This document shows, piece after piece, positions 56,723 through 62,200 of a DNA stretch of 64,000 nt. Within the stretch, counting starts at the first letter, position 1; every line of letters begins with the position of its first letter. This DNA comes from Sodaliphilus sp. (GTDB taxonomy: Bacteria; Fibrobacterota; Fibrobacteria; Fibrobacterales; Fibrobacteraceae), in the NCBI GenBank assembly GCA_963660435.1, contig CAVKYI010000009.1, forward strand, positions 371-64,370. The letters are read 5' to 3'. Both the position numbers and the translations under genes were made by a program. The notes beneath the pieces were generated by a model. The model saw only the letters and a list, made by a program, of their open reading frames with translations, was not told where the DNA came from and did no database searches.

Positions 56723-58573
56723 GTGATTCAGGTTCAGAATATTTGCAAATCGTTTGGGACGCAGGAACTTTTCAACGACGCGAGCTTTCTCGTTGCGCCG
56801 AGGGAACGCGTGGGAATCGTCGGGCGGAACGGCTCCGGCAAATCGACGCTCTTCAAAATCATCCTGGGCGAAGAATATCTCGACGGCGGAAAAATCGACA
56901 TTCCCAAAAACTATTCTCTGGGATATTTAAAACAGCACATCGCCTTTTCACATGCGACCGTCCACGAAGAAGCCTGTTCCGTCCTCCAGAAAAACGAAGA
57001 CGGCTGGATCGACACGCATCATGTCGAAGCGATTCTTTTCGGCCTCGGATTCGACGAAAGCTCCATGCAAAAGGACCCGATGCTCCTCTCGGGCGGTTTC
57101 CAGATCCGGCTGAACCTCGCCAAGGTTCTCGCGAGCGAACCGAACATGCTCCTGCTCGACGAACCGACCAACTATCTCGACATCGTATCGATGCGCTGGC
57201 TTTCCCGCTTTCTGCGCGCCTGGAAAGGCGAAATTCTGCTCATCACGCACGACCGAAAATTCATGGACGAAGTCTGCACGCATATCGTGGGGATTCACCG
57301 GAAAAAGTTCCGAAAAATCCAGGGAACCGTGGCAAAGCTCAAGGAGACGATCCGCACCGAAGAAGAAGTCGCCCTGCGCACCCAGGAAAACGACGCGCAC
57401 AAGCGCGAACAGCTCGAACGCGTCATCGACCGTTTCCGCTTCAAGGCGAGCAAGGCCGCAATGGTCCAGTCCAAGATCAAGGCTGTCGAACGTCTCGGCG
57501 AAGCGACAAGGCTCGAACACGAGCGCAACCTGGAATTTTCGTTCAACGAAGCGCCTTTCCCCGGCAAGCGAATGCTCCAGATCAAGGATTTGAACTTTCA
57601 CTTCGACGGCGGACCGACCCTTATCCAGGACTTGACCGTCGAACTTTTCAAGGGCGACCGCGTCGCGATCATCGGACCTAACGGACGCGGAAAGACGACT
57701 CTCCTGAATCTCATCGCAAACGAACTTTCCCCAGTCTCCGGGAGCATTTCGCTCAACCCGAACATCCTCATGAATTACTTCGGGCAGACAAACATCAACC
57801 GTCTAAACCTGGAAAACACGGTTGAAGAAGAAATCCAGTCGGCGGTCCAGAGCGCGGAACGCGGCAAGGCGAGAAGTCTCGCCGGGCTGATGATGTTCAG
57901 CGGCGACGCTTCGCAAAAGAGAATCCGCATCCTTTCGGGCGGGGAACGCAGCCGGGTCCTGCTCGGGAAAATTCTCGCGACGCCGTGCAACCTGCTCCTG
58001 CTCGACGAACCGACCAACCATCTCGACATGGAAAGCATCGAAAGCCTGATCGACGCACTCGAAGATTATGGCGGAACAGCCATCGTCGTCTCGCACGACG
58101 AAGAACTCCTTCAAGTTTTTGCAAACAAGTTAATCGTCTTTGACGGGGGAAAATGCTTCGCCTTCGAAGGCACCTACCGAGAATTTCTGGAAAAAATCGG
58201 CTGGGCGGAAGAAAAGGACGGCATGACCAAATCCGTCACCGCCGAAACGAAGGTCCAAGCCTCGGCCCCGACCGTTTCCAAGAACAGGGATGACCGCCGC
58301 GCCCGCGCCGCATACATCGAGGAACGAGCGAAAATCGTCCGCCCGCTCGAAAAGGAAATCCAGCGGCTCGAAAAGGAAATTCAGAAATCCGAAGATCTCG
58401 CGAAGAAAAAGGAAGAGGAACTCCTCGCGGCATCCGAAAAATCGGACGGGGCCTTGATTGCCAAGCTCGCCACCGAACTTTCCGCCGCCAAGTCCAAAGC
58501 CGAAGAATTTTTCGTCAAATGGGAAGAGGTTTCCAACCAGCTGGAAGCGGCAAAGGAAAAATACCCGCTGTAA
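56723..58573 (+). CDS. ABC-F family ATPase (two NBDs, C-terminal coiled coil)
   Basis: Two Walker A motifs (GRNGSGKST; GPNGRGKTT). Two signatures (LSGGFQIRLNLA; LSGGERSRVLLG). Interdomain linker. K/E-rich tail. GTG start. Confidence 0.9.
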   Translation: MIQVQNICKSFGTQELFNDASFLVAPRERVGIVGRNGSGKSTLFKIILGEEYLDGGKIDIPKNYSLGYLKQHIAFSHATVHEEACSVLQKNEDGWIDTHHVEAILFGLGFDESSMQKDPMLLSGGFQIRLNLAKVLASEPNMLLLDEPTNYLDIVSMRWLSRFLRAWKGEILLITHDRKFMDEVCTHIVGIHRKKFRKIQGTVAKLKETIRTEEEVALRTQENDAHKREQLERVIDRFRFKASKAAMVQSKIKAVERLGEATRLEHERNLEFSFNEAPFPGKRMLQIKDLNFHFDGGPTLIQDLTVELFKGDRVAIIGPNGRGKTTLLNLIANELSPVSGSISLNPNILMNYFGQTNINRLNLENTVEEEIQSAVQSAERGKARSLAGLMMFSGDASQKRIRILSGGERSRVLLGKILATPCNLLLLDEPTNHLDMESIESLIDALEDYGGTAIVVSHDEELLQVFANKLIVFDGGKCFAFEGTYREFLEKIGWAEEKDGMTKSVTAETKVQASAPTVSKNRDDRRARAAYIEERAKIVRPLEKEIQRLEKEIQKSEDLAKKKEEELLAASEKSDGALIAKLATELSAAKSKAEEFFVKWEEVSNQLEAAKEKYPL

Positions 58574-58582
58574 AAAGCAACG

Positions 58583-59059
58583 CTATTTTACTTCCAACAG
58601 CAAATCATTAAAATACTGCAGAGAAGAGTATTTGATTTCGTACGCATCTAGATTTTTCCCATTGCGAATCGCATCGATATAATAATCAAGATAGGCTTCA
58701 AACGAAAGACGGATTTGTTTAAAATTCGAACTTAATTCTCGAAATTCTTTTTTGTCGATGCAAGCGGGCATTCCCAAATCTTCCATTTCGACAACAACCG
58801 CTTTTATAAAATCCAATACAGGAACTCTCCCCGTTGAACTCAAGATACTTCTTCCCGATGACGAAAAATAATAACAGGTTTTCGGCTTGCCGGGGGAATT
58901 CTTACCAAATCTTCCGTTCGTTCTAAATGGGATGGCAAATGTCCGCTTCTTCGTTTTCACGAGAAGCACGACATAAGGCCGCCCATTTTTATTTTCCAAA
59001 ATTTCGGAATGCCCAAGATGCTTGCAGTAAAAAGCCGAAGACAAAGTAACCAGTTCCAT
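58583..59059 (-). CDS. putative type III toxin-antitoxin toxin (ToxN/AbiQ-like endoribonuclease)
   Basis: 158 aa from ATG 59059, with a GGAGA RBS immediately after a terminator T-run. MELVTLSSAFYCKHLGHSEILENKNGRPYVVLLVKTKKRTFAIPFRTN...KYSSLQYF resembles the ToxN/AbiQ layout. The call rests mainly on the locus architecture (repeats, terminator, ORF). About 38% GC. Confidence 0.7.
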   Translation of the reverse strand: MELVTLSSAFYCKHLGHSEILENKNGRPYVVLLVKTKKRTFAIPFRTNGRFGKNSPGKPKTCYYFSSSGRSILSSTGRVPVLDFIKAVVVEMEDLGMPACIDKKEFRELSSNFKQIRLSFEAYLDYYIDAIRNGKNLDAYEIKYSSLQYFNDLLLEVK

Positions 59060-59070
59060 CCTGTTTCTCC

Positions 59071-59106
59071 AAAAAAAATGCCGTTTATTTATATAAAATA
59101 AACGGC
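59071..59106 (-). terminator. intrinsic terminator between the antitoxin repeats and the toxin ORF
   Basis: Minus strand GCCGTTTATTT-TATAT-AAATAAACGGC (perfect 11-bp stem) followed by A + T8. Confidence 0.8.
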
Positions 59107-59112
59107 ACCTCA

Positions 59113-59215
59113 ATTCGGTCTTTCTTTTTTTCTCAGGCGGCGACCTACCGCCCTGCTTCATCCATTCGGTCTTTCTTTTTTTTCTCAGGCGGCGACCTAC
59201 CGCCCTGTTTCTTTC
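59113..59215 (-). ncRNA. putative type III antitoxin RNA: two tandem direct repeats (52 + 51 nt)
   Basis: Plus-strand units attcggtctttcttttttt(t)ctcaggcggcgacctaccgccctg... at 59113-59163 and 59164-59215. They are identical over about 43 nt apart from a one-T length difference. Each has a GGCGG-N7-CCGCC hairpin and an A-rich tract in the RNA sense. Confidence 0.7.
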
Positions 59216-59218
59216 CTC

Positions 59219-59247
59219 AATCTATCAAAATTCATCCGAAAAGTCAA
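59219..59247 (-). promoter_or_regulatory. putative sigma70-type promoter of the type III TA locus
   Basis: Minus strand TTGACT (59247-59242), 17-nt spacer, TAGATT (59224-59219). The predicted TSS falls at the first repeat. Confidence 0.55.
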
Positions 59248-59267
59248 CCTTTCAATGAAAATTTCCC

Positions 59268-62200
59268 TTATTCCTTCACCCGGCGAACGCCCCAGCTTCG
59301 CGAGACCTCCTTCTTTTGAGATTCTCCGCCAACGACGCCAATCTTTATCTTGAGCAAGGCGACATAAGCCCCGGAACCGACCAGGCGACCGGACTTTGCG
59401 CGCATATTCCAGCCCAGGTAGATGTTTCCCGAATTTGTGGAACAGTCACCGTCAAAGATATCGTCCGAGCAACGGACCGTTCCTTTTTTCGAACTGACAA
59501 ATGTTCCCAGATTCGTAAAGAAGTTCGCTTCGTAGCTCAGGTAAACCTTTTCCTTGTCAGCTCCGCTCGAAAGTACAAGCTCGCTCAGGTCATAGCGAAT
59601 CAGGAATCCAGGAAGTCCGAGCGACTTTTCCGCCTTGTCATACGGCTGCCCCGCGGGAATCCGGTAAGGAATCAGCGTCGAGGAATCCCTGAACGCCGCC
59701 GCACGTTCCGCATCTTGGTTAAACAGCGTCGCCGACTCGATTCGAATCACCTGTTCACCGACTATACGGACCCAACGATTGTTTTCGTTTGCAAAGTTAC
59801 CCGAGAGGTCGCGCAAAAGCCCCGGAGCTATCCGTACGCTGTCTCCCACCGACGGCAAGACGCCGTTCTTGTTCGAATACAGCACTTCGTACCGAGCCGT
59901 TTCCTTCTTCGCGGACACCGGGAAGATTCCACGCGAAAATTCCGAACCGTCGCGCCATGCGCGAAATTCGAAAACGGAATCCATCGCAAAGCTGTTCGTA
60001 TCGATCGCTTCGCTGAAAACGAGTGACAGCCGGTAAATATTCTCGTTCTCGGGCTTGACGATCGCAGCGGTCAAGACCGGACCGATTCTATCGCGAATCT
60101 TCCCGGTCACATGGAAAAGAACAGTATCCGTCTCCCCGGTTAGGGAATCCGTCAAGGCCTTGTTGAACCACGACGAATAGCTGCCCACATAGACTTTCTT
60201 TTCGAGATTTCCCGTAAACAGGAACGGAACGAGCGAATCACTTTCGAGAACGATCAACGAATCGAGCGTCCTGTATCTTTCCACGTCCTTGCGACTTAAT
60301 TTATATGGAACCGTATCGCCAAAAGCCCAAGCCACCGTATCGGGAACGTTTTCATCGACAATCTTTTCCCCGTAGGCGAGCATGAGGCTGTCAGCGACTC
60401 CGTCGCCATCGCGGTCAAAAATTTCCCCGCCCGAAGGAATCGGTACGGGCGGCTTTTCCAGATTGACGAAATTCCAGTAGGCGGTATCCGCGAATGTCTT
60501 TCCAAACACGCCGAACGATCCGTCCTTGACAGTCTCTGTTCCCATCACGAAAAATTTAGCGCGTCCATTCACCGGGAAAATCGAATCGATCAAGATTCCA
60601 TTTTCGTCGGAAAAGGCTAGAGAATCCAAAGTCCAGAATTCCAGAGCACCATCGCATCCCGAATCGCATGGTGCGCCCATATAATAGGCCATCACATAGA
60701 CGGGATAGGGCACAAACGCCCAGTTGCCAAGAGTCACGGTATCCGGGTCGATTTCGTTCCACAGGGAATCCGCAAACACAAGGTTCGGCAACGGATATTC
60801 CGGAACGGTAAAGGAAACTTTCGACGATTGCGACAGGTCGGACGCCAGATGGAAATACAGCACGTAAGAGCCGGGAGCGAGCGTTCTCGAACGGACAATC
60901 GCGCTCGTGTCGATAGTGAATCCCGACATCGTTTCGTTGATGTCGATTCCGCCGTAGTTCAGGCCCGGATCGAGCGTCACGCCGTCAAGAGGCAGATTCC
61001 CGCCTTTCAGGATAAACACCGAAGCCGCCGGGACCGTGTCAATCTTTGTCACGCTCGAAATATCGCAGCTAAGCGACTTATCCGCAATCATCTGCCAGAT
61101 TTCATAGGAAATCGTCCCGTCCTTCGTCGGTATTTCAACCGGGTAATATGTCTTTTCCGTTTCGAGGTTGATGGATGTGCGCATCTTGAAGTTCGAACCC
61201 GTAGCGTTCCGCTCCGAAAAGAAAATGTGGAACGGATAGGTTTCGCCTTCGACAAGCCCGAGCGTATCCAAATCGACAGCCCCTTCCACCGGGGAATGGC
61301 AACCGCCGATATCGACGACAAGCCGATTATTGATAAACACCCAGACATCGTCATCGCCGCGGAATTCAAAATACTGTCCCTTTATATACTGGAACTGTGC
61401 CGAAATTTTCATCGAAAAGCTGTAATTGTGCTGCTTGCCATTTTCCGTTCGCAACTGTTCGCTCCAGTCAAACTTCGGATTCTTGACGGTCTTTGCCGAA
61501 TCGAGATATTCGAAATCGTCCAACGGGAAAAATCCTCCGTCGGGATGCGATTCCGAAATATCCGCTAGCCAGAAGCCTTCCGCGTCGAGCGACAGATCGA
61601 TATCGCGACATGTCGCGTTGGTATAGACATTCCCCGCCTTGTCCGTCGCCACTTCAACCGGGATAAACCATTTTTCGATTTCATGCGCGGCGGCGCACTG
61701 TCCCCACGGATAGGAAAGCGAATCGACACGAGCCGGATTCCCGTTCACGAGAGTGTCCTGGACCATCCCCATCACATGTCCCTGGCATTTCTGGTTGGTT
61801 TGAATCGTTCCCGTCGAATCGAGATAGGTCGCTTTCGTAAAATCGTTTCCGTCATAGATTCCGCCAAAATCCACATCGACAGAATCCGGATAAGCCTCGC
61901 CCGCCCAGTCAAGAAGCATCGCCGAAATTTTCAGGCTCGGACAGACGCCGAGACGCCCGGGAAATTGCGTAGAAATCCGCGGAGCGCTCACGAGAGTCGG
62001 GTAAGGCGTCACCCAGGCGGTATCGCCAATCGCAAAAACGGAATCCAGGGAAATCGGTCCGCCATCCTTCAGTCCCGCCGAAGAATACATTTCAAAACCG
62101 AAACGTTGCCGAAAGAGAACTTCGAAATTCGGAACATGACGATAATAGGCAGCCTCGTACCAGCCGCACGTATCCGCCGAAAAAGGTCCCATCCCAATCG

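What the first reader, a model, noticed from the sequence alone, without database searches (positions are those of the whole stretch)
58583..59247. Unannotated type III toxin-antitoxin locus: promoter, two tandem 51/52-nt RNA repeats, terminator, ToxN/AbiQ-like ORF
Seen, reading the minus strand:
- A TTGACT-N17-TAGATT promoter (59247-59219).
- Two head-to-tail repeats (59215-59164 and 59163-59113) whose 3' roughly 43 nt match except for one extra A in the upstream copy. In RNA sense they read CAGGGCGGUAGGUCGCCGCCUGAGAAAAAAA(A)GAAAGACCGAAU, with a GGCGG-N7-CCGCC hairpin and an A-rich tract.
- A strong intrinsic terminator (perfect 11-bp stem plus U8, 59106-59071).
- Immediately after it, GGAGA and ATG 59059, opening a 158-aa ORF of about 38% GC.

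The ORF begins MELVTLSSAFYCKHLGHSEILENKNGRPYVVLLVKTKKRTFAIPFRTN and ends KYSSLQYFNDLLLEVK. The 192-aa ORF in the track is an artefact that reads through the terminator and repeats.

Established: ToxIN, AbiQ/antiQ, CptIN and TenpIN loci have exactly this layout. The toxin is an endoribonuclease that processes the repeat transcript into antitoxin units, and such loci give abortive-infection phage defence.

Inference: this is a type III TA. Its repeat unit (51-52 nt, 2 copies) is longer than the 36-nt ToxI and the roughly 37-45-nt units I recall for TenpI and CptI. It may therefore represent a divergent or unclassified family in a phylum where these systems are little studied.
Basis: partly seen in the sequence, partly recalled or inferred. 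Interest (0 to 1): 0.85.

Follow-up and report, generated by a model that had tools for sequence, protein, structure and literature searches.

The report
Ordinary tenpIN type III toxin-antitoxin locus
This is a real, intact RNA-antitoxin/protein-toxin (type III) module of the already described tenpIN family in a gut Fibrobacter-like bacterium; its 51/52-nt double repeat is the normal size for that family, so it is a mis-annotated ordinary member, not a new kind.

Summary
On the minus strand there is a promoter, two tandem 52/51-nt units, a strong terminator, an RBS and a 158-aa ORF. The annotated 192-aa ORF is a read-through artefact.

The reading as a type III toxin-antitoxin locus is well supported, but the family and novelty claims are not.
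- **Family:** the toxin does not match ToxN/AbiQ (Pfam) or any PADLOC model. It matches NCBIfam's TenpIN toxin model end to end (E = 2e-22, below the curated cutoff). Its AlphaFold model matches ToxN, AbiQ and CptN best.
- **Repeat length:** Blower et al. 2012 give tenpIN repeats of 50.9 nt mean (39-57) in 2.2 copies, and already list Fibrobacter succinogenes S85. A 2025 survey lists fibrobacteria among 722 TenpN.
- **Relatives:** about 69 of 71 assessable loci carry 1-2 such units plus a terminator upstream.
- **RNA structure:** the units form an H-type pseudoknot supported by covariation (93% of cells paired vs 66% shuffled; the loop-tail helix pairs in 98%).
- **Selection:** the toxin is under purifying selection (dN/dS 0.08-0.16).

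Minor oddities: this clade lacks a His conserved in canonical TenpN and has a loop insertion. Its RNA is better conserved than its toxin.

Verdict: a new member of a known kind, of low interest.

The parts
59219..59247 (-). Sigma-70-type promoter: TTGACT, 17-nt spacer, (TG)ATAGATT
   Evidence: 9/12 match with TG before the -10. The -35 box is identical and the -10 box is TAGATT or TAAATT in four syntenic orthologues. Transcription from it is inferred, not shown.
59161..59212 (-). tenpI antitoxin unit 1 (52 nt). Stem 1 is GGGCGGU 59205-59199 paired with GCCGCCU 59193-59187. Loop GGUC 59197-59194 pairs with GACC 59171-59168 across the A-rich tract 59186-59172, giving an H-type pseudoknot.
   Evidence: TRF; repeats; covariance-model hit at 61.6 bits; covariation for both helices; alignment-free loop-tail test.
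59110..59160 (-). tenpI antitoxin unit 2 (51 nt, one A fewer). Stem 1 is 59153-59147 paired with 59141-59135. Loop GGUC 59145-59142 pairs with GACC 59120-59117.
   Evidence: (55.6 bits).
59154..59167 (-). Inter-unit linker GAAUGGAUGAAGCA. It resembles the (A)AUNGAUGA linker conserved between units in other clades and is a candidate TenpN processing site.
   Evidence: Sequence comparison across loci. The cleavage position is inference only.
59071..59109 (-). Rho-independent terminator between antitoxin and toxin: 12-bp perfect stem (14 bp with G-U pairs), 5-nt loop, U8
   Evidence: (-16.7 kcal/mol, z = -5.94, 0/200 shuffles as stable). Equivalent hairpin plus T-run in the related loci.
59066..59070 (-). 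Ribosome-binding site GGAGA, 6 nt before the ATG
   Evidence: Sequence; GGAGA conserved in orthologues.
58583..59059 (-). tenpN toxin gene, 158 aa (stop codon included)
   Evidence: NCBIfam NF047358 TenpIN E = 2e-22, full length. 31/31 homologues hit the same model. AF2 model pLDDT 89, with ToxN, AbiQ and CptN as best PDB matches. dN/dS 0.08-0.16.

Best explanation
This is a chromosomal tenpIN-family type III toxin-antitoxin module in an uncultured Fibrobacteraceae (Hallerella/Fibrobacter-like) gut bacterium.

Shown here:
- One constitutive-looking promoter precedes two tandem tenpI units of about 51 nt.
- Each unit can form an H-type pseudoknot: a 6-7 bp stem 1, then a 4-bp stem 2 between the hairpin loop (GGUC) and a 3' GACC. 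The two are separated by an A-rich tract.
- A strong intrinsic terminator follows, then the 158-aa TenpN gene with its own RBS.
- Both the RNA and the protein are evolutionarily constrained.

Inferred by homology to validated TenpIN (P. luminescens), ToxIN and CptIN:
- Most transcripts stop at the terminator, so antitoxin RNA is made in excess over toxin mRNA.
- TenpN is a sequence-specific endoribonuclease that cuts the repeat precursor into unit-length pseudoknots, probably in the conserved AUNGAUGA-like linker.
- Those pseudoknots stay bound to TenpN and inhibit it in a closed RNA-protein complex.
- When transcription is shut off or RNA turnover rises, for example on phage infection, the labile RNA is lost. 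Free TenpN then cleaves cellular and phage RNAs, causing growth arrest or abortive infection.
For: Anatomy.

Toxin homology:
- NCBIfam TenpIN NF047358 E = 2e-22 over profile positions 1-141 of 141.
- All 31 aligned homologues hit the same model. Relatives at 38-47% identity score 126-150 bits against a cutoff of 90.
- Family member P0033 finds the Y. pseudotuberculosis IP31758 p153kb and Granulicella MP5ACTX9 plasmid loci, both listed as tenpIN in 2012.
- The window toxin aligns with the Yersinia TenpN at 25% identity, pairwise E = 5e-9.

Fold: AF2 pLDDT 89.2, pTM 0.87, with a long helix at residues 103-133. The best PDB matches are ToxN 2xd0/7d8o/4ato, AbiQ 4glk and CptN 4rmo at TM 0.53-0.58, followed by MazF.

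Architecture matches the family norm of 50.9-nt repeats in 2.2 copies. The Yersinia reference locus has two 52-nt units with the same stem, A-tract and loop-tail design.

Context in relatives:
- Of 76 metagenome loci, about 71 have enough upstream DNA to assess.
- About 64 of those have two units, 4-5 have one, and all are on the toxin strand followed by a hairpin and T-run.

RNA structure:
- 47 of 49 unique units have a 4-bp loop-tail helix, against 4.1 +/- 1.7 with shuffled tails.
- Pair counts: 93.0% of cells paired vs 65.7% shuffled (0/500) and at most 48% when slid.
- All 8 stem-1 pairs and 3 of 4 pseudoknot pairs show changes on both sides. The pseudoknot helix is 98.3% paired.

Selection:
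- dN/dS is 0.08-0.16 at dS 0.40-0.52 among four syntenic orthologues.
- The repeats are nearly invariant over the same divergence.

Experimental precedent: P. luminescens TenpN is toxic, the full TenpI array neutralises it, and the locus aborts coliphages.
Against: - No experiment bears on this locus. Toxicity, RNase activity, RNA processing and phage defence all rest on homology.
- The protein scores below NCBIfam's curated equivalog cutoff (79.9 vs 90 bits).
- The window's clade lacks the His that is conserved in canonical TenpN (H60 in E. faecium numbering, predicted functional in PMC12283969). It has an 8-residue insertion at that loop, where pLDDT falls to about 75.
- Single-unit hairpins are not significantly more stable than shuffles (z = -1.3 to -1.7), so the structure rests on covariation.
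- The composite alignment used was anchored using the proposed 3' partner, which could favour pairing. The class-specific covariation, the slide control and the alignment-free control argue against this being an artefact.
- The neighbours (ABC-F ATPase, PA14 giant protein) are not a defence island.
Confidence: 0.85

Rival explanations
1. It is a distinct, so far unclassified type III family or TenpN-like subfamily, with different RNA recognition or catalysis.
For: - The score is below the NCBIfam TenpIN cutoff (79.9 vs 90 bits).
- There is no Pfam or PADLOC model hit.
- The clade lacks the conserved His and has a loop insertion.
Against: - The profile match is full length at E = 2e-22, and there is an unbroken series of relatives reaching 150 bits.
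- Repeat length, copy number and pseudoknot design are identical to canonical tenpIN, including a reference locus from the 2012 list.
- Pfam shows no domain for any family member, including the canonical ones, so its silence carries no information.
Confidence: 0.08
2. It is a decaying or domesticated remnant. The toxin is inactive (the His is lost) and the repeats persist only as a transcribed leader or terminator region without toxin-antitoxin function.
For: - The His predicted to be functional is absent.
- The locus sits at a fixed chromosomal position between housekeeping-type genes.
- Standalone tenpI-like arrays without a toxin exist in other clades.
Against: - dN/dS is 0.08-0.16 with an intact ORF in every orthologue.
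- The repeats, promoter and terminator are conserved well beyond the synonymous-site divergence.
- The other signature residues are retained: R27-P-Y29, P44-F-R46, G77, D83, K86, L147.
- Solved relatives (ToxN, MazF) catalyse cleavage without a His, from my own knowledge of those structures.
Confidence: 0.05
3. The repeats are a cis-regulatory leader (attenuator or riboswitch-like) controlling an unrelated small protein, not an antitoxin.
For: The layout of a structured 5' RNA followed by a terminator and an ORF also fits attenuation. No Rfam family matches.
Against: - The protein is a TenpN homologue with a ToxN-like fold.
- The units are duplicated in tandem with a conserved linker, which is typical of processed antitoxin arrays.
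- No alternative anti-terminator pairing is apparent in the leader fold.
- Standalone arrays with their own promoter and terminator occur in relatives.
Confidence: 0.02

Closest known systems
TenpIN of Photorhabdus luminescens TT01 (family prototype; Blower et al. 2012, PMC3401426)
   Same: Same toxin family by profile (NF047358). Same operon order of promoter, tandem repeats, terminator and toxin. Family statistics (repeat 50.9 nt mean, 2.2 copies, toxin about 164 aa) match the window's 51/52 nt, 1.9-2 copies and 158 aa.
   Different: The prototype is experimentally validated (toxicity, antitoxicity of the full array, abortive infection against coliphages); the window locus is not. The window clade scores below the curated cutoff and lacks the conserved His.
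tenpIN locus on Yersinia pseudotuberculosis IP 31758 plasmid p153kb (listed in 2012; L081)
   Same: TTGACA-N17-TATTGT promoter, two 52-nt units each with stem 1, an A-rich tract and a loop-tail pairing (GGAUG:CAUCC and GAACA:UGUUC), then a terminator and a 146-aa toxin. The toxins align over their full length (25% identity, E = 5e-9).
   Different: It is plasmid-borne in a gammaproteobacterium. Its two repeats are non-identical. It keeps the conserved His ('NANH'). Its RNA sequence class is too divergent to be hit by the covariance model built here.
tenpIN locus of Fibrobacter succinogenes S85 (listed in Table 1 of PMC3401426) and the fibrobacterial TenpN in the 2025 catalogue (PMC12283969)
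   Same: Same phylum and same family assignment, which removes the 'unstudied phylum' argument.
   Different: Sequences were not retrievable here (supplements not held), so how closely the window clade resembles the S85 locus was not measured.
ToxIN (P. atrosepticum, B. thuringiensis, E. coli) and AbiQ/antiQ
   Same: Same operon logic and the same toxin fold (Foldseek probability 0.98-1.0, TM 0.53-0.58). The antitoxin is an RNA pseudoknot.
   Different: There is no detectable sequence-profile match (PF13958 absent). ToxI units are about 36 nt in more copies. Membership in toxIN is not supported.
CptIN (Eubacterium rectale, PDB 4rmo)
   Same: ToxN-like toxin fold (TM 0.53). Longer repeats in about two copies. 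In CptI an A-rich tract makes A-minor contacts with the pseudoknot stem (as summarised in PMC12283969); the window's A-tract lies in the analogous position.
   Different: A different sequence family. The tertiary contacts of tenpI have not been determined.

Membership tests
tenpIN (type III TA; criteria of Blower et al. 2012) | Toxin shares significant sequence similarity with TenpN | tested here: met
   NF047358 TenpIN E = 2e-22, profile 1-141/141. 31/31 relatives hit it. The chain of relatives reaches the 2012-listed Yersinia and Granulicella loci.
tenpIN (type III TA; criteria of Blower et al. 2012) | Tandem direct repeats immediately upstream of the toxin on the same strand (family range 39-57 nt, 1.9-3.0 copies) | tested here: met
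   52/51-nt units, 1.9 copies, 95% matches; two covariance-model hits; family range.
tenpIN (type III TA; criteria of Blower et al. 2012) | Rho-independent terminator between the repeats and the toxin gene | tested here: met
   12-14 bp stem plus U8, -16.7 kcal/mol, z = -5.9.
tenpIN (type III TA; criteria of Blower et al. 2012) | Single promoter upstream of the repeat array | tested here: met
   TTGACT-N17-TAGATT with TG, conserved in orthologues. Activity was not measured.
tenpIN (features described by Nadig et al. 2025) | tenpI unit has an A-stretch and two stems able to form an H-type pseudoknot | tested here: met
   Covariation: 93% of cells paired vs 65.7% shuffled; pseudoknot helix 98.3% paired with 3 of 4 pairs changed on both sides. 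47/49 units vs 4.1 expected.
tenpIN (features described by Nadig et al. 2025) | ToxN-like core fold with a long kinked helix | tested here: met
   AF2 pLDDT 89.2, helix at residues 103-133. Best PDB matches are ToxN, AbiQ and CptN. The kink itself was not inspected.
tenpIN (features described by Nadig et al. 2025) | Conserved residue signature D28, R36, Y38, P53, R55, H60, G75, D77, K80, L150 (E. faecium numbering). This is a conservation pattern in a subset, not a formal criterion. | tested here: inconclusive
   Equivalents E19, R27, Y29, P44, R46, G77, D83, K86 and L147 are present. The H60 equivalent is absent in the window clade, which has 'NGRFGKNSPGKPKT' in place of 'NIKHP'.
NCBIfam NF047358 'TenpIN family toxin' equivalog (annotation rule) | Whole-protein score at or above the curated cutoff of 90 bits | tested here: not met
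   79.9 bits. Clade members score 77-87, the L001 clade 83-90, and more canonical relatives 126-150. This explains why the protein is unnamed in the deposits. It is an annotation threshold, not a definition of the family.
tenpIN / any type III TA | Toxin is a toxic endoribonuclease that processes the repeat RNA; the RNA neutralises the toxin; abortive-infection phenotype | not testable with these tools
   Indirect support only: purifying selection on the toxin and the repeats.
toxIN / AbiQ (Pfam PF13958 ToxN_toxin) | Sequence-profile match to ToxN/AbiQ | tested here: not met
   The only Pfam hit at E <= 10 is an irrelevant one (E = 0.13). PADLOC: none. PDB sequence search: none. Only the fold is similar.
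cptIN | Sequence similarity to CptN | tested here: not met
   The PDB sequence search, which includes CptN 4rmo, gave no hit. Structural similarity only, TM 0.53. No dedicated CptN profile was available.

The most novel reading that the evidence does not exclude
The window's clade may be a functionally distinct TenpN subfamily. Three things would set it apart.
- It has lost the His conserved in canonical TenpN.
- It carries an 8-residue basic insertion in that loop.
- Its antitoxin RNA has stayed about 86% identical to that of a sister clade whose toxins are only about 47% identical.

This could mean a modified active site or RNA-binding surface together with cross-neutralising antitoxins between diverged toxins. 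Type III antitoxins are usually strictly cognate, so that would be unusual.
Probability: 0.12. Interest if true: 0.45.

Novelty: new member of a known kind. Interest (0 to 1): 0.2.

Why it matters
- **Annotation:** the deposited record calls a 192-aa 'hypothetical' protein that reads through an RNA antitoxin and a terminator. The same error recurs in relatives (N-termini 'MKQGGR.PPEKKRKT'). NCBI's TenpIN model misses this clade by about 10 bits.
- **Biology of the host:** the locus adds a likely abortive-infection module to gut and rumen Fibrobacteraceae, but the family, its architecture and its presence in this phylum were already published.
- **By-product:** the loci gathered here give covariation support for the tenpI H-type pseudoknot, including the loop-to-tail stem. 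This was previously proposed from manual inspection and single-sequence prediction, and the 2012 paper said TenpI could not be aligned. It could guide mapping of the processing site and structural work on TenpIN, the one type III family without a solved structure among the PDB hits seen here.

Tried and rejected
- **Pfam, PADLOC and PDB sequence searches** gave nothing relevant. This rejects ToxN/AbiQ membership by sequence.
- **Rfam** has no family for the repeat; all hits are far below gathering scores.
- **TRF on upstream regions** of homologues called repeats in only about 25 of 76 loci. Direct reading and a structure-aware scan showed the rest also have them, with fewer than 1.9 copies or non-identical units. 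The TRF negatives were therefore false, as the 2025 paper also notes.
- **MAFFT alignments of whole units (A2) and of 3'-trimmed units (A3)** put the 3' pseudoknot strand out of register between classes. I used a declared composite instead: the first 30 nt plus the last 12 nt of each unit, which drops 1-4 nt of the A-tract. An alignment-free control backs it up.
- **The genome-collection scan with the alignment** failed for lack of a conserved stretch. The single-protein scan found only 4 close loci, so the F. succinogenes S85 locus could not be retrieved. Supplements of both key papers are not held.
- **The simple terminator scan** did not list the real terminator, so folding was used instead.
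- **A mobile-element or defence-island context** was considered and rejected. The flanks are an ABC-F ATPase and a PA14-domain protein, and gene order is conserved in 4-5 related genomes.
- **A viral origin** was considered and rejected for this clade. Only relatives at 30-35% identity occur on viral contigs.
Full report
**1. What is there**

Reading the minus strand, the finding's elements are all present.
- **Promoter:** TTGACT (59247-59242), a 17-nt spacer and TAGATT (59224-59219), preceded by TG.
- **Repeats:** a tandem repeat at 59113-59211, period 52, 1.9 copies, 95% matches. Its two copies differ by one A in the A-tract and a few flanking bases.
- **Terminator:** a perfect 12-bp inverted repeat (59107-59096 / 59090-59079) with a 5-nt loop and eight U. 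It folds at -16.7 kcal/mol, z = -5.9.
- **RBS and ORF:** GGAGA at 59070-59066, then ATG 59059 opening a 158-aa ORF that ends at 58583.

The longest mechanical ORF (192 aa, from 59161) translates repeat 2 and the terminator. It is deposited at NCBI as an unnamed protein (P0134). Orthologues and the family profile begin at the downstream Met, so the 192-aa call is an artefact.

**2. What the protein is**

- Pfam gives no ToxN/AbiQ match.
- PADLOC gives nothing, and a PDB sequence search gives nothing.
- NCBIfam gives one clear hit: NF047358, 'type III toxin-antitoxin system TenpIN family toxin', E = 2e-22, covering profile positions 1-141 of 141. The score is 79.9 bits, below the curated 90-bit cutoff.
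- All 31 aligned homologues hit that model. The window's clade scores 77-87 bits, a sister clade 83-90, and relatives at 38-47% identity 126-150. The window protein is therefore a peripheral but continuous member of TenpN.
- A family member (P0033) finds, by tblastn, the plasmids of Y. pseudotuberculosis IP 31758 and Granulicella MP5ACTX9. Both are tenpIN loci in the original 2012 list.
- The window toxin aligns with the Yersinia toxin over its full length (25% identity, E = 5e-9).
- An AlphaFold2 model built on the family alignment is confident (pLDDT 89.2, pTM 0.87). Its best PDB matches are ToxN (2xd0, 7d8o, 4ato), AbiQ (4glk) and CptN (4rmo) at TM 0.53-0.58, followed by MazF.

**3. What the literature says**

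Blower et al. 2012 (PMC3401426) defined tenpIN.
- Antitoxin repeats have a mean of 50.9 nt (range 39-57) in 2.2 copies (1.9-3.0), and toxins a mean of 164 aa.
- Fibrobacter succinogenes S85 is listed with one tenpIN locus.
- P. luminescens TenpN is toxic, its full TenpI array neutralises it, and the locus aborts coliphages.

Nadig et al. 2025 (PMC12283969) catalogued 722 TenpN, including fibrobacteria and viruses. They described tenpI as longer, often non-identical repeats with an A-stretch and a putative H-type pseudoknot.

A 51/52-nt unit in two copies with a 158-aa toxin is the textbook tenpIN layout, and the phylum was already covered.

**4. Do relatives carry the same RNA?**

A metagenome scan gave 76 loci and a genome scan gave 4 close ones.
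- TRF called upstream repeats in only about a third of the loci.
- Direct reading, a structure-aware scan and a covariance model show more. Of about 71 loci with enough upstream DNA, about 64 have two units and 4-5 have one (L017, L030, L034, and weakly L028 and L031).
- All units are on the toxin's strand, 50-70 nt before the start codon, and are followed by a hairpin and T-run.
- The exceptions are L058 and L075 (see section 8).

The Yersinia reference locus has the same design: a promoter, two 52-nt units, a terminator and the toxin.

**5. RNA structure**

Each unit has three parts: a 6-8 bp hairpin, an A-rich tract, and a short segment complementary to the hairpin loop. That loop-tail pairing changes in step between clades.

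| Loop | Tail | Where |
|---|---|---|
| GGUC | GACC | window clade |
| GGUU | AACY | L005, L020 |
| GACC | GGUC | L023-L030 |
| GGG(U) | (R)CCC | L036-L044 and others |
| GAGC | GCUC | L037-L074 |
| GAAC | GUUC | L071 |

- **Alignment-free test:** 47 of 49 unique units have a 4-bp loop-tail helix, against 4.1 +/- 1.7 (maximum 10) with shuffled tails. Loops pair with tails of their own class far better than with other classes.
- **Formal pair count** on a declared composite alignment:
  - 93.0% of cells are paired, against 65.7% in shuffles (0 of 500 reach the observed value) and at most 48% when partners are slid.
  - All 8 stem-1 pairs show double-sided changes, as do 3 of the 4 pseudoknot pairs.
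  - The pseudoknot helix is 98.3% paired.

The unit is therefore an H-type pseudoknot under selection, as proposed for tenpI in 2025. By analogy with CptI, the A-tract would lie along stem 1 (inference).

The linker between units, (A)AUNGAUGA, is conserved across clades and reads GAAUGGAUGAAG in the window. It is my candidate for the TenpN processing site. This is inference only, because the tenpI cleavage site is not known.

**6. Is it maintained?**

- Four contigs are syntenic with the window over 6-7 kb at 86-92% nucleotide identity. The best match is a Hallerella MAG (Fibrobacteraceae).
- Gene order is PA14-domain giant protein, then tenpIN, then a convergent ABC-F ATPase. So this is a stable chromosomal locus, a low-GC patch of about 0.7 kb, not in a defence island or mobile element.
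- Toxin dN/dS is 0.08-0.16 at dS 0.40-0.52. The repeats, the -35 box and the terminator are almost invariant over the same divergence.
- Both components are therefore under purifying selection, which argues against a decaying remnant.

**7. Mechanism, and how sure**

Shown: the operon anatomy, TenpN homology, the ToxN-like fold, the covarying pseudoknot and the evolutionary constraint.

Inferred from validated TenpIN, ToxIN and CptIN:
- The terminator sets an excess of antitoxin over toxin.
- TenpN cleaves the precursor into unit pseudoknots, which bind and inhibit it.
- Loss of the labile RNA on phage infection frees the RNase and causes abortive infection.

I put 0.85 on 'functional tenpIN type III TA'. 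I am less sure that its natural role is phage defence.

**8. Deviations and side observations**

- The window clade lacks the His conserved in canonical TenpN ('N-I-K-H'). It has 'NGRFGKNSPGKPKT' there, with lower model confidence.
- Its antitoxin RNA is 86% identical to that of the L001-L022 clade, although the toxins are only 47% identical.
- A GGG:CCC sub-clade has a second, standalone pair of units just 3' of the toxin, with its own -10 box and terminator and no following toxin. L058 has only this 3' array.

These points are minor and do not change the classification.

**9. Verdict**

This is a correct and careful observation and a correct general interpretation (type III TA). The specific family hint (ToxN/AbiQ) and the novelty argument (unusually long repeat, unstudied phylum) do not hold. 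It is an unannotated, mis-called member of the published tenpIN family: a new member of a known kind, of low interest.

Noticed in passing
L058 3446-3545; L070 3489-3590; L039 3445-3544; also L036, L038, L040, L044, L052: A sub-clade of TenpN loci has a second pair of tenpI-like units immediately downstream of the toxin stop. The pair has its own TATAAT box and terminator and no toxin ORF of 100 aa or more after it. L058 has no upstream array at all, only this 3' one. It could be an orphan antitoxin array, a remnant of a tandem module, or a reversed gene order.
   Followed up: partly
window 59110-59212 vs L001-L022 upstream regions: The antitoxin RNA units are 86% identical (82-93%) between the window clade and the L001-L022 clade, while the toxins are only 47% identical. 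This is the opposite of the general statement in the 2025 paper that tenpI diverges faster than TenpN, and it hints at possible cross-neutralisation.
   Followed up: partly
window 58583-59059, residues 47-62 of the toxin: The window clade replaces the canonical 'N-I-K-H-P' loop, which carries the His predicted to be functional, with 'NGRFGKNSPGKPKT'. There is no His, there are 8 extra and largely basic residues, and pLDDT is about 75. The sister clade has 'SAHRPKTGRVPH'.
   Followed up: partly
L077 (CAVKXR010000128.1) and L078 (CAVJTH010000034.1): Contigs labelled Oscillospiraceae and Senegalimassilia MAGs are syntenic with the window and with Fibrobacter and Hallerella MAG contigs at 86-88% nucleotide identity over 6-7 kb. 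These are most likely mis-binned Fibrobacteraceae contigs.
   Followed up: partly
P0006, P0011-P0013, P0017, P0133, P0134 (homologous gene calls): Gene callers repeatedly over-extend TenpN N-termini through the terminator and repeat, giving for example 'MKQGGR.PPEKKRKT...'. This is a recognisable annotation artefact that flags type III loci.
   Followed up: yes
L081 (Y. pseudotuberculosis p153kb) 416-520: The two non-identical tenpI repeats of this reference locus keep the loop-tail pairing through different sequences: GGAUG:CAUCC in unit 1 and GAACA:UGUUC in unit 2. This is compensatory change within a single array.
   Followed up: no
L017, L030, L034: These loci have a single tenpI unit upstream of an intact toxin. 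In P. luminescens, by contrast, a single cloned repeat was reported not to neutralise the toxin.
   Followed up: no
L075 130-290: An unrelated 54-nt x 2.8 perfect tandem repeat plus terminator lies upstream of a short (48-aa match) TenpN-like start. It is a different repeat sequence class that the covariance model does not detect.
   Followed up: no
window 58400-59300: The tenpIN locus is a low-GC patch of about 0.7 kb (0.39-0.43) between genes at 0.50-0.57 GC. The toxin stop lies 9 nt from the stop of the convergent ABC-F gene, and the promoter begins 21 nt after the stop of the PA14-domain gene. This is compatible with an old insertion.
   Followed up: no
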